From: Escherichia phage vB_EcoS-26175I
DNA: 64,000 nt
Sequence record: NC_133255.1
Direction: 5' to 3' (one strand)
Shown here in pieces: positions 27,883 to 40,560 of this stretch (within the stretch, counting starts at the first letter, position 1; each line of letters opens with the position of its first letter). The notes under the pieces were generated by a model, which saw only the letters and a list, made by a program, of their open reading frames with translations, did not search any database and was not told the origin of the DNA. A program made the translations under genes and the position numbers.

Positions 27883-28057
27883 GTAGATCTCAGGATTAAA
27901 TCATAAACTTCATTAGCGGATACTGGAAGTATGAGATTATACATCTTTTGGTCATACCTCTGACCATACTCTATAAACACATACTCTTTAGTTAATGTAT
28001 TAACAGCTAACCAGATATCAGTTATAGGAGTTTTCATCATGAGTTAATCCAATGTTT

Positions 28058-28138
28058 GGTAGGGATGGAGGGACTCGAACCCACACCCGAAGACTAGAAC
28101 CTAAATCTAGCGCGTCTGCCAATTTCGCCACATCCCCA
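28058..28138 (-). tRNA. tRNA-Leu (anticodon UAG)
   Basis: Hand-folded: anticodon stem CTAGA/TCTAG, loop TTTAGGT; 81 nt. Confidence 0.45.
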
Positions 28139-28382: not shown

Positions 28383-28458
28383 TGGTGGAGTCACTCAGAA
28401 TTGAACTGAGTTCCACTGCTTGCAAGGCAGTAAGTTTAACCAAATAACCTATGACCCC
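28383..28458 (-). tRNA. tRNA-Ala (anticodon UGC) with G3:U70
   Basis: Hand-folded: anticodon stem ACTGC/GCAGT, loop CTTGCAA; acceptor GGGGTCA with G3-U70 identity pair. Confidence 0.6.
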
Positions 28459-28463
28459 GAATT

Positions 28464-28542
28464 TGGTGGAGAATAAGAGATTCGAACTCTTCTGATATCC
28501 TCGGTGCAAGCGAGGTGTCCACTCCAAGCAGACCCATTCCCC
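28464..28542 (-). tRNA. second UGC-anticodon tRNA (Ala-like, G3:U70, 11-nt D-loop, 7-nt variable region)
   Basis: Hand-folded: anticodon stem CCTCG/CGAGG, loop CTTGCAC. Confidence 0.4.
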
Positions 28543-31895: not shown

Positions 31896-31981
31896 TGGCG
31901 GGCCGTGTAGGAGTTGAACCTACTTTATCCTTGCGGATACGGATTAACAGTCCGGCGCTTAAACCGTTCAGCCAACGGCCC
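31896..31981 (-). tRNA. class II (long variable arm, Tyr-like body) tRNA with anticodon loop CTGTTAA (GUU)
   Basis: 86 nt; acceptor GGGCCGT/ACGGCCC; 3-bp D-stem; loop differs from the Tyr loop CTGTAAA at one position. Confidence 0.4.
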
Positions 31982-33053: not shown

Positions 33054-33134
33054 TGGTGGGGGATGGAGGACTCGAACCTCCGCGTGGTATACCCGGTCTA
33101 CAGCCAGGCGCCGTCGCCACTGAGCCAATCCCCC
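33054..33134 (-). tRNA. tRNA-Tyr (anticodon GUA)
   Basis: Acceptor GGGGGAT/ATCCCCC; anticodon arm CCTGG-CTGTAGA-CCGGG; 81 nt. Confidence 0.5.
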
Positions 33135-33898: not shown

Positions 33899-34049
33899 TT
33901 ATTATCTCCAGTTATTTAGAATGTAAGCCAAACTTAGGATCATAGCGATCATAAGTCGTACCATTAGTTGAAGTCTTGATGCTATGAAAACGACAGTACA
34001 TAAATTTACGTAGTGCTTTCTTAATAGCTTTCATTTTATTTCCTTAATT

Positions 34050-34126
34050 TGGTAGGGGTGGTGGGATTCGAACCCACAAAACCTGAATTTTAAGTCCAGT
34101 ACCTATGCCAATTCGATTACACCCCC
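34050..34126 (-). tRNA. class I tRNA with anticodon loop CTTAAAA (UAA, Leu-type anticodon on a short-variable-arm body)
   Basis: Acceptor GGGGGTG/CACCCCT, T-arm GTGGG-TTCGAAT-CCCAC, anticodon stem CTGGA/TTCAG. Confidence 0.4.
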
Positions 34127-34135
34127 ATGTAATCT

Positions 34136-34483
34136 TTAGAGTTCGTAACCCTGAATATATCGAGCAAAACCAGTAATCTCGAACTGAATTGCCCATGCTA
34201 CTTCCATATGCTCAATCTTACTAAAATGAGCGTCAGACTGTTCTAGGAAATAACGAGAGATTATAGGGAACTCAATGTCAAAATCTTCCTTATCCATACC
34301 ATAGAAGAAGTTTCCAGAAATATTACGAACTTCACGAAAGAAATCCTCAATCTGAAAATCCATCAGAGGATAAGTATATTCCTCTTTGCTATCATCCGTT
34401 TGGAAGAAGCGGAAATGCACAAGGCAAGAGCCAATCAGATTTACTGCTGGAGTAGTGTAAATATCCATGTTAACCTCGATCAA
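34136..34483 (-). CDS. hypothetical protein
   Basis: 115-aa ORF. Confidence 0.5.
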   Translation of the reverse strand: MIEVNMDIYTTPAVNLIGSCLVHFRFFQTDDSKEEYTYPLMDFQIEDFFREVRNISGNFFYGMDKEDFDIEFPIISRYFLEQSDAHFSKIEHMEVAWAIQFEITGFARYIQGYEL

Positions 34484-39601: not shown

Positions 39602-40560
39602 ATTGATTCCTTTTGTTAGGTATTTTTAAGAACTCTCGTAAAAGTCCTTAAAGATACCCGGCGGTAGGTAGGGTCAGCCCCCTCAGATTAAGCTCTGCAG
39701 CCCTTCCGTCAGACAATATCTTCCAGTTTAAGTCAGGGTGACTTTGTGGTTATTCAGCTAAGGCTGATCGGCAGCTCTTAGGTCATGACTCCTCGTCGCT
39801 CTTTACTCACCGGCTAGGAAGTTATCTCGAGTTCTTCCTAGCTCTTTAGTCGTGCCATTAAGGTGCCTTCTAAGAGACTTACCTTTTCCCACTTTCGATT
39901 TGGGCATGTATCAGGTAAGGGTAGCCAAATCAGCATCCTAGTCCTACGGGGTCTCATCAAATTACATACCACCGCTTTTCGATATGTAATGCCCATGTCT
40001 ATACGGGAGAAGAAAATGGGCATCTTTCTCTTCGTCTGATAGCTTGAAAAACGACTCCTCATGGAGGAAAAACTTCACTATCTAGGCTAAAGCCTAAAGT
40101 TCTTCTTTAATCCGGCAAAGCAAAACCGTAGTATATACTTTTCAGGAATGGTTGGTTAGTCTGGAACCAACTACCGCGTGGTTTTGGCAGTGCACAGCTG
40201 CCTGCGATTGCTTCGCCATTAGAAGCACCAGTTATCCAACTCTTTCCGACCGTGGGACTCGAACCCACATCTTCAGGCGGTGAAGCCCTAATAATACCTA
40301 TTATACTAGGACGGCAGTGTTGTTACATAAGTGGTTTCGGCACCCCACTAACATAAACTAGAGAAGAGTTTACGAGATTTCGGGACAGCTCCCGAGTTTT
40401 CCGCAGATTTTCAGTTCCCTATCAATAGCAATAAGCGTTAGCTCGTAGCCTCTCTCAGAGTACTTACTAGTCTCCAACTCACCGACTCTATTCAGTGGAA
40501 TAGCTATCCTAGTAGGAGTCACTAAACTCACTCAGCGTAATCGGCTCGCTGTTCTCTAAT
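39602..40560 (-). ncRNA. about 1 kb promoter-driven ORF-poor, relatively GC-rich stretch containing a tRNA-like 3' element (T-arm GTGGG-TTCGAGT-CCCAC at 40252-40268); candidate structured non-coding RNA
   Basis: Early promoter immediately upstream; only a junk-like 74-aa ORF inside. Confidence 0.3.

What the first reader, a model, noticed from the sequence alone, without database searches (positions are those of the whole stretch)
34050..34126. Class I tRNA body carrying anticodon UAA
A 77-nt tRNA with perfect acceptor and T-arm has loop CUUAAAA (anticodon UAA, decoding UUA/UUG Leu) but a short variable arm, whereas bacterial Leu tRNAs are class II. Either a non-standard Leu tRNA or a tRNA whose identity differs from its anticodon.
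Basis: seen in the sequence. Interest (0 to 1): 0.45.

Follow-up and report, generated by a model that had tools for sequence, protein, structure and literature searches.

The report
Phage leucine tRNA lacking long arm
This is a real, conserved phage transfer RNA for leucine that lacks the long extra arm textbooks give every bacterial leucine tRNA, and the same short form is widespread in the tRNA gene clusters of phages and mobile elements.

Summary
Window 34050-34126 (minus strand) encodes a 77-nt tRNA with anticodon UAA, a 5-nt variable loop (GUUUU), discriminator A73 and an encoded CCA (ARAGORN; Rfam 57.4 bits).

The window is a T5-like phage, 100% identical to Escherichia phage vB_EcoS-26175III. 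The gene is near-identical in more than 300 T5-like genomes, where it is annotated tRNA-Leu.

It carries the features reported to define leucine identity for E. coli LeuRS: A73, A14, A15 with U48, G18G19 and A20a in a leucine-type D arm, plus the G1·U72 pair of E. coli leuZ. Only the long arm is missing, and that arm is reported to be dispensable for E. coli LeuRS.

UUA is the phage's commonest leucine codon and swaps with other leucine codons in T5 orthologues.

Pattern scans found hundreds of similar short leucine tRNAs in viral contigs and bacterial tRNA arrays. A73, A14, A15 and U48 were invariant in them and all stems covary. Serine and tyrosine tRNAs in the same arrays keep long arms.

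Verdict: a functional, non-standard class I tRNA-Leu, not an identity switch. Charging was not tested. E. coli LeuRS failed on the one bacterial class I tRNA-Leu assayed so far. I found no paper describing this phage family.

The parts
34050..34126 (-). Whole tRNA-Leu(UAA) gene, 77 nt including the encoded CCA, class I body
   Evidence: ARAGORN; Rfam RF00005 57.4 bits
34120..34126 (-). Acceptor stem 5' strand GGGGGUG (tRNA positions 1-7); G1 pairs with U72 as a wobble
   Evidence: E. coli leuZ and leuU have the same G1·U72
34101..34117 (-). D arm: 3-bp stem AUC/GGU around the loop GAAUUGGCAUA, carrying A14, A15, G18, G19 and A20a (leucine-type D arm)
   Evidence: The signature matches all 6 E. 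coli Leu genes fetched (5 isoacceptors) and both window Leu tRNAs, and only 1 of 38 non-Leu tRNAs
34088..34094 (-). Anticodon loop CUUAAAA; anticodon UAA at 34092-34090; A36-A37-A38 follows
34078..34082 (-). Five-nucleotide variable loop GUUUU ending in U48, in place of the 13-15 nt arm of E. coli Leu tRNAs
   Evidence: U48 is invariant in 136/136 family members
34061..34077 (-). T arm GUGGG-UUCGAAU-CCCAC (U54, U55, C56, A58 present)
34050..34060 (-). Acceptor 3' strand CACCCCU (34054-34060), discriminator A73 (34053), encoded CCA (34050-34052)
28057..28137 (-). Paralogue tRNA-Leu(UAG), 81 nt. It has the same G1·U72, A73 and leucine-type D arm, and an unpaired 9-nt variable region, intermediate between class II and class I
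34136..34483 (-). Upstream small ORF whose stop lies 9 nt before the tRNA 5' end. The tRNA sits inside a run of small minus-strand ORFs
33912..34034 (-). Downstream 40-aa ORF starting 15 nt after the CCA

Best explanation
This is a functional leucine tRNA of a T5-like phage that has lost the long variable arm. It is transcribed with the neighbouring small early genes and cut out by host tRNA-processing enzymes (inferred). Host leucyl-tRNA synthetase then charges it with leucine. [quoted passage not shown] The tRNA then decodes UUA and UUG, supplementing a codon that the AT-rich phage uses heavily. The sequence features, the conservation and the codon evidence are shown. Charging, processing and expression are inferred.
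For: 1. It is a high-scoring tRNA with a clean cloverleaf.

2. Identity elements. The review PMC9976931 reports that E. coli leucine identity rests on A73, the A15-U48 pair, G18G19, A20a and the D/T tertiary pairs. It reports that neither the anticodon nor the long arm matters, and that variants lacking the anticodon and variable arms remain active. PMC6614811 adds A14 to the E. coli set. The target has every one of these.

3. Its D arm (3 bp plus GAAUUGGCAUA) matches the E. coli Leu D arm (3 bp plus RAAUYGGUAGA). Its G1·U72 is shared with leuZ (UAA) and leuU.

4. Relatives. Its nearest relative in the window is the other Leu tRNA. Among 3,651 unique tRNAs from fetched loci, the 40 nearest are all short Leu tRNAs. 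With those removed, class II Leu and Tyr tRNAs are enriched (7 each in the top 30).

5. Conservation. 387 phage records match the gene, 323 of them at 95% identity or more, and it is annotated tRNA-Leu. 77-nt Leu(UAA) and Leu(UAG) tRNAs also occur in Vibrio, Proteus and Aeromonas Demerecviridae and in a Pseudomonas Schitoviridae phage, with different stems.

6. Family. Pattern scans hit the 120-locus limit in both viral and bacterial collections. In 136 unique members in fixed register, A73, U8, A14, A15 and U48 are invariant although none of them was in the pattern. Nearly every stem pair shows three to six pair types with 96-100% pairing.

7. The arm loss is specific to Leu. In the same arrays 385/466 Leu tRNAs are short, while 190/193 Ser and 87/93 Tyr tRNAs are long.

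8. Codons. UUA is the top Leu codon in window ORFs (20.3 per 1000). 31 of 39 changed UUA codons are other Leu codons in T5 orthologues.
Against: No aminoacylation or expression data exist for this gene. E. coli LeuRS could not charge the only bacterial class I tRNA-Leu tested, S. coelicolor tRNA-Leu(CAA), and the authors state that EcLeuRS charges only type II (PMC6614811). That tRNA has C48 and not U48, which may explain the failure, but this is my inference. The same group reports that the E. coli LeuRS leucine-specific domain favours tRNAs with a large variable-region loop. Removing the arm lowered affinity for Aquifex LeuRS, so charging may be less efficient. Phage T5 itself lacks the gene at this position, so it is dispensable.
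Confidence: 0.8

Rival explanations
1. Identity switch: a class I tRNA of another amino acid acquired a UAA anticodon, is charged by its original synthetase, and puts a different residue at UUA/UUG codons. [quoted passage not shown]
For: The body is class I, which in bacteria is otherwise never Leu. tRNAscan-SE 2.0 documents such anticodon/isotype conflicts (PMC8450103).
Against: No single class I isotype stands out as a relative. There is no G3·U70, no long arm with G73, and no G-1. By my knowledge of E. coli identity rules, the other synthetases need anticodon bases that UAA does not supply. The leucine-type D arm, A73, U48 and G1·U72 are all leucine features. UUA exchanges with CUN/UUG codons in T5 orthologues just as CUG does.
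Confidence: 0.04
2. A non-decoding role: the RNA acts mainly as a decoy, competitor or regulator (for example soaking up a tRNA-targeting host nuclease or toxin) and not as an adaptor in translation.
For: T5-like phage tRNAs are known to neutralise tRNA-targeting defences: PARIS via tRNA-Lys, retron-Eco7 via tRNA-Tyr (PMC11464382; PMC13096335). T5 also encodes several stable tRNA-like RNAs of unknown function.
Against: The identity elements, the anticodon loop, the encoded CCA and the matching codon usage are all kept. That is what a decoding tRNA needs and more than a decoy would need. The known rescue tRNAs also work by decoding.
Confidence: 0.08
3. A decaying gene: a former class II tRNA-Leu that suffered a deletion of its variable arm and is on its way to being lost.
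For: T5 lacks the gene at this position. The window's Leu(UAG) and Tyr also show shortened variable regions.
Against: The gene is near-identical in more than 300 genomes. Hundreds of divergent relatives have compensatory stem changes and invariant tertiary positions. In the Vibrio VspSw_1 and Proteus phage 2 loci fetched (about 6 kb each), every Leu tRNA found is class I.
Confidence: 0.03

Closest known systems
E. coli tRNA-Leu(UAA), leuZ, and the other four E. coli Leu isoacceptors (class II)
   Same: Anticodon UAA; anticodon loop YUUAAAA; A73; G1·U72 (leuZ, leuU); 3-bp D stem with an 11-nt loop RAAUYGGYAKA; variable region ending in U48; standard T loop.
   Different: The E. coli genes have 13-15 nt variable arms with a stem (85-87 nt in all). 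The phage gene has 5 unpaired nucleotides (77 nt).
Minimalist E. coli tRNA-Leu variants lacking the variable arm (Larkin et al. 2002, Asahara et al. 1993/1998, as summarised in PMC9976931)
   Same: They show that E. coli LeuRS can charge Leu tRNAs without the long arm, provided A73 and the D/T elbow are intact. The phage tRNA has exactly this layout.
   Different: Those are laboratory constructs. This is a natural, conserved gene. The primary papers were not held in the library, so I rely on the review.
Streptomyces coelicolor type I tRNA-Leu(CAA) (PMC6614811)
   Same: A bacterial Leu tRNA with a 5-nt variable loop that coexists with class II Leu tRNAs and a single LeuRS.
   Different: Its loop is ACAGC (C48), its anticodon is CAA, and it depends on features of the Streptomyces LeuRS leucine-specific domain. 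E. coli LeuRS does not charge it. The phage family has an RUUYU loop with invariant U48 and occurs in phages of many host phyla.
Animal mitochondrial tRNA-Leu(UUR)
   Same: Class I body, UAA anticodon, and identity set by A73 and A14.
   Different: Organellar, structurally loose, and charged by a dedicated mitochondrial LeuRS. No sequence relationship was tested.
T5 tRNA-Tyr with a distinct variable loop that escapes retron-Eco7 / Septu PtuAB (PMC11555353, PMC13096335)
   Same: A T5-like phage version of a class II tRNA whose altered variable region has a shown biological consequence.
   Different: A different amino acid. That arm is altered, not removed. No nuclease acting on the variable arm of tRNA-Leu is known to me.

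Membership tests
tRNA (Rfam RF00005) | Cloverleaf and sequence scoring above the curated gathering score | tested here: met
   57.4 bits against 29, E = 2.5e-10, full model 1-71; ARAGORN cloverleaf
E. coli-type tRNA-Leu (substrate of bacterial LeuRS) | Discriminator A73 | tested here: met
   A at window 34053; A in 136/136 family members
E. coli-type tRNA-Leu (substrate of bacterial LeuRS) | A14, the A15-U48 Levitt pair, and G18G19 and A20a in the D loop | tested here: met
   D loop GAAUUGGCAUA; variable loop ends in U. Same layout as all E. coli Leu genes. Criteria taken from PMC9976931 and PMC6614811
E. coli-type tRNA-Leu (substrate of bacterial LeuRS) | T-loop partners for the elbow (U54-A58, U55, C56) | tested here: met
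   T loop UUCGAAU
E. coli-type tRNA-Leu (substrate of bacterial LeuRS) | Actual leucylation by LeuRS | not testable with these tools
   Needs an aminoacylation assay. Cautionary precedent: EcLeuRS fails on S. coelicolor type I tRNA-Leu
Class II (long-arm) tRNA | Variable region of 10 or more nucleotides forming a stem-loop | tested here: not met
   5 unpaired nucleotides, GUUUU
Class I tRNA-Leu of the S. coelicolor type | 5-nt variable loop on a Leu tRNA in a bacterial cytoplasm | tested here: met
   One search compared
Class I tRNA-Leu of the S. coelicolor type | Sequence relationship, and dependence on an adapted LeuRS leucine-specific domain | not tested
   Only the variable loop could be compared (ACAGC against GUUUU). 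The S. coelicolor gene was not fetched
Suppressor or recoding tRNA | Anticodon complementary to a stop codon, or codon reassignment visible in proteins | tested here: not met
   UAA reads UUA/UUG and not a stop codon. UUA swaps with Leu codons in 31 of 39 changes against T5
tRNAscan-SE bacterial Leu isotype model | Leu isotype model is the top-scoring isotype | not testable with these tools
   tRNAscan-SE is not available. Proxies used instead: the identity-element check and nearest-neighbour ranking. Deposited annotations say tRNA-Leu

The most novel reading that the evidence does not exclude
Loss of the long arm is an adaptation and not a neutral deletion. On this reading, phages and mobile tRNA arrays carry a distinct, horizontally spreading lineage of class I tRNA-Leu because the missing arm removes the handle used by host factors that act on class II tRNAs. 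[quoted passage not shown] LeuRS, which ignores the arm, would still charge the short form.
Probability: 0.2. Interest if true: 0.75.

Novelty: new variant of a known kind. Interest (0 to 1): 0.48.

Why it matters
Textbooks and the tRNA identity literature treat bacterial leucine tRNAs as class II. The one documented bacterial exception (S. coelicolor) was presented as rare, and E. coli LeuRS was said to charge only the long-arm type.

Hundreds of E. coli and Salmonella phages carry a conserved class I tRNA-Leu with intact E. coli identity elements. Many similar genes sit in phage and mobile-element tRNA arrays across bacterial phyla. Together these suggest that ordinary bacterial LeuRS enzymes do accept class I substrates when U48 and the elbow are right.

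That gives a natural test set for leucine identity rules. It matters for tRNA annotation, because isotype models trained on class II Leu may mis-score these genes. It also raises a testable link to defence nucleases that attack variable arms.

Tried and rejected
- Thermodynamic folding alone did not give the cloverleaf and was uninformative.
- A BLAST search of the tRNA against 5,426 E. coli genomes found no chromosomal relative, only 23-nt T-arm matches to plasmid tRNA-OTHER genes.
- My first collection pattern was mis-specified. N15 selects a 6-nt variable loop, so the target itself does not match it. It did reveal a second group of short Leu(UAA) tRNAs. The pattern was corrected.
- I considered that bacterial Schlafen nucleases might target class II tRNAs, as human SLFN11 is said to. 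The characterised RorSlfn5 cuts tRNA-Lys(UUU), T5 tRNA-Ala and tRNA-Met in the anticodon arm, so this gives no support.
- Eight completed literature searches (two further calls failed on term length) found no paper that describes a class I tRNA-Leu in T5-like phages or tRNA arrays. One search was badly designed and wasted. The 1980s T5 tRNA sequencing papers and Larkin 2002 are not in the library, so an earlier description cannot be excluded.
- Simple global-alignment nearest-neighbour ranking is noisy once the short Leu tRNAs are removed, so I treat it as supporting evidence only.

Full report
**What is there.** The window matches Escherichia phage vB_EcoS-26175III at 100% identity and hundreds of other T5-like phages (family Demerecviridae) at lower identity. 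ARAGORN finds 31 tRNA genes, all on the minus strand between 25.1 and 40.3 kb. The flagged gene at 34050-34126 is called tRNA-Leu(taa), 77 nt. Rfam's tRNA model scores it 57.4 bits against a threshold of 29.

The ARAGORN cloverleaf has:
- a 7-pair acceptor stem whose first pair is a G·U wobble;
- U8 A9;
- a 3-bp D stem around the loop GAAUUGGCAUA;
- anticodon stem CUGGA/UUCAG with loop CUUAAAA;
- a 5-nt unpaired variable loop GUUUU;
- a perfect T arm;
- discriminator A and an encoded CCA.

Energy minimisation alone prefers another fold (-24.7 against -20.9 kcal/mol), which I do not weigh.

**Setting.** The gene lies 9 nt after the stop of a small ORF (34136-34483) and 15 nt before the start of a 40-aa ORF (33912-34034), inside a run of small minus-strand ORFs and tRNA genes. 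The promoter and terminator scans showed nothing above the shuffled background. Processing from a polycistronic early transcript is inferred, not shown.

**Is it a leucine tRNA?** I fetched all five E. coli K-12 Leu isoacceptors. They share:
- a 3-bp D stem with an 11-nt loop RAAUYGGUAGA;
- A73;
- a variable region ending in U;
- in leuZ (UAA) and leuU (GAG), a G1·U72 pair.

The phage gene has the same D-arm layout, differing from the E. coli GAAUUGGUAGA loop at two loop positions. It also has A73, U48 and G1·U72.

A regular expression for this D arm matched all six E. coli Leu genes and both Leu genes of the window. It matched only one of 38 other tRNAs, a Glu tRNA with G73.

According to the identity review PMC9976931, E. 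coli LeuRS depends on A73, A15-U48, G18G19, A20a and the D/T tertiary pairs. Neither the anticodon nor the long arm matters, and truncated tRNA-Leu lacking both the anticodon arm and the variable arm remains active. PMC6614811 adds A14 to the E. coli set. All listed elements are present in the target.

From general knowledge of E. coli identity sets, no other synthetase has its determinants here. There is no G3·U70, no long arm with G73 and no G-1, and the anticodon bases U34 A35 A36 fit none of the anticodon-reading enzymes.

**Relatives.**
- By global alignment, the closest tRNA in the window is the other Leu tRNA (UAG, 28057-28137). It shares G1·U72, A73 and the D arm, and has an unpaired 9-nt variable region.
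- T5's own Leu(UAG) is a full 85-nt class II tRNA. Within this phage group the arm therefore comes in long, reduced and absent versions.
- Among 3,651 unique tRNAs collected from all fetched loci, the 40 nearest to the target are all short Leu tRNAs.
- With those removed, class II Leu and Tyr tRNAs each supply 7 of the top 30, although each is about 3% of the background. No class I isotype stands out.
- That argues against descent from another class I tRNA by an anticodon change.

**Conservation.** 387 phage records match the gene, 323 of them at 95% identity or more, mostly from Salmonella and Escherichia phages. Where annotated, it is called tRNA-Leu. Phage T5 itself lacks it: small ORFs and the homing endonuclease hegA occupy the corresponding stretch.

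More distant phages carry 77-nt Leu tRNAs with UAA and UAG anticodons, different stem sequences and the same architecture. These are Vibrio VspSw_1, Proteus phage 2, Aeromonas TS3 and the Schitoviridae Pseudomonas phage ZC08.

**A wide family.** I used a pattern made only of loop sequences: the D-loop end, the anticodon loop CTTARAA, and the T loop at the spacing that forces a 5-nt variable loop.
- It hit the same limit in one-genome-per-species bacterial assemblies from many phyla.
- An earlier, mis-specified pattern found a further set with 6-nt loops.
- Parsing gave 353 unique short tRNAs with Leu anticodons from the three scans. The discriminator was A in 346 and the last variable-loop base was U in 343.

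I then took the 136 unique sequences that fit the target's exact register. In these, U8, A14, A15, U48 and A73 are invariant although none of them is in the pattern. Nearly every stem pair shows three to six pair types, with 96-100% pairing.

Three points of circularity need stating. The acceptor stem was used to choose the register. The G53-C61 pair is fixed by the pattern. So are G18 G19 Y A U A in the D loop. Those particular numbers are true by construction.

The loci are dense tRNA arrays, with a median of 15 tRNAs per viral locus and 10 per bacterial locus of 8 kb or less. That points to phages and mobile elements. One clear cellular case is the 200-kb endosymbiont Candidatus Nardonella.

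**Only leucine loses the arm.** In those arrays 385 of 466 Leu tRNAs are 79 nt or shorter, whereas 190 of 193 Ser and 87 of 93 Tyr tRNAs are 83 nt or longer. The loci were chosen for holding one short Leu each. Even so, that leaves about 147 extra short Leu tRNAs against 71 long ones. This is the pattern expected if the synthetases set the limits. By my knowledge of the identity rules, SerRS needs the long arm and bacterial TyrRS contacts it, while LeuRS does not.

**Decoding.** In 60 long ORFs of the window (39.5% G+C), UUA is the commonest Leu codon at 20.3 per 1000 (22.7% of Leu). CUA stands at 15.3 per 1000. From my own knowledge of E. coli codon usage, CUG makes up about half of Leu codons there and CUA about 4%. 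The two phage Leu tRNAs (UAA and UAG) thus serve the codons the phage over-uses.

In 24 orthologous protein pairs with T5, 89 UUA codons aligned. Fifty were unchanged, 31 had become other Leu codons and 8 had become other amino acids. That is the same behaviour as CUG and CUA, so UUA means leucine in this phage.

The A36-A37-A38 run suggests that host MiaA would modify A37, as it does in E. coli UUX-reading tRNAs (see PMC4836647, listed). This is an inference.

**Counter-evidence.**
- PMC6614811 reports that E. coli LeuRS could not leucylate the S. coelicolor type I tRNA-Leu(CAA), and states that EcLeuRS charges only type II.
- That tRNA's variable loop is ACAGC, with C48 and not U48. It therefore lacks the A15-U48 element. 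I think this, and not the short loop itself, may explain the failure, but that is untested.
- The same group reports that the E. coli LeuRS leucine-specific domain favours tRNAs with a large variable-region loop.
- Removing the arm lowered affinity for Aquifex LeuRS.
- The phage tRNA may therefore be a weaker substrate than leuZ.

**Why lose the arm?** A neutral deletion permitted by LeuRS is the simplest view. An adaptive view has a precedent. [quoted passage not shown] No such nuclease is known for tRNA-Leu. The bacterial Schlafen studied so far is not specific to class II tRNAs. I give the adaptive reading about 0.2.

**Novelty.** The gene is routinely annotated, so as a gene it is not new. 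Eight completed literature searches found no description of its class I architecture, of the phage and array family, or of its bearing on E. coli LeuRS specificity. Older subscription papers on T5 tRNAs are not held. I file it as a new variant of a known kind: a natural class I tRNA-Leu that keeps the bacterial leucine identity set.

Noticed in passing
window 31896-31981 (-): tRNA-Asn(GUU) is 86 nt, with a 4-bp variable stem capped by a GCAA loop and G73. This is a class II-like body on an asparagine anticodon, the mirror image of the finding. T5's Asn tRNA is 78 nt, and Proteus phage 2 annotates an 85-nt Asn. Whether SerRS could touch it is unknown.
   Followed up: partly
window 28057-28137 (-) and 33054-33134 (-): tRNA-Leu(UAG) and tRNA-Tyr(GUA) are both 81 nt with unpaired 9-nt variable regions, against 85 and 88 nt in T5. 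The Tyr case bears on the retron-Eco7/Septu nucleases that cut the tRNA-Tyr variable loop. In Salmonella phage BD13 the Tyr homologue is annotated as a tRNA-OTHER pseudogene.
   Followed up: partly
window 40243-40316 (-): ARAGORN calls a 74-nt 'tRNA-SeC(tca)' with a UCA anticodon, an 8-bp acceptor stem with two mismatches and no CCA. Rfam gives only 33 bits. It could be an opal-suppressor-like tRNA or a tRNA-like relic.
   Followed up: no
window 28383-28458 and 28464-28542 (-): Two adjacent tRNA-Ala(UGC) genes of 76 and 79 nt. T5 tRNA-Ala(UGC) is one of the preferred substrates of the bacterial Schlafen RorSlfn5 (PMC13056530).
   Followed up: no
L299 5664-5739 (Candidatus Nardonella dryophthoridicola chromosome): A 76-nt class I tRNA-Leu sits between tRNA-Gln and tRNA-Met in a 200-kb endosymbiont genome. 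It looks like a cellular gene and not part of a phage-type array.
   Followed up: no
L008-L127 (viral contigs): A second group of short tRNA-Leu(UAA) genes has 6-nt variable loops (often ACAGGU) and D loops such as CAACUGGCAGA. They mostly have A73 and often G1·U72.
   Followed up: partly
L006 (phage T5 28-41 kb): T5 lacks the Leu(UAA) gene. The homing endonuclease gene hegA lies in the corresponding interval, so presence of the gene varies within the T5 group. The T5 record also lists several stable tRNA-like RNAs of unknown function among the tRNA genes.
   Followed up: no
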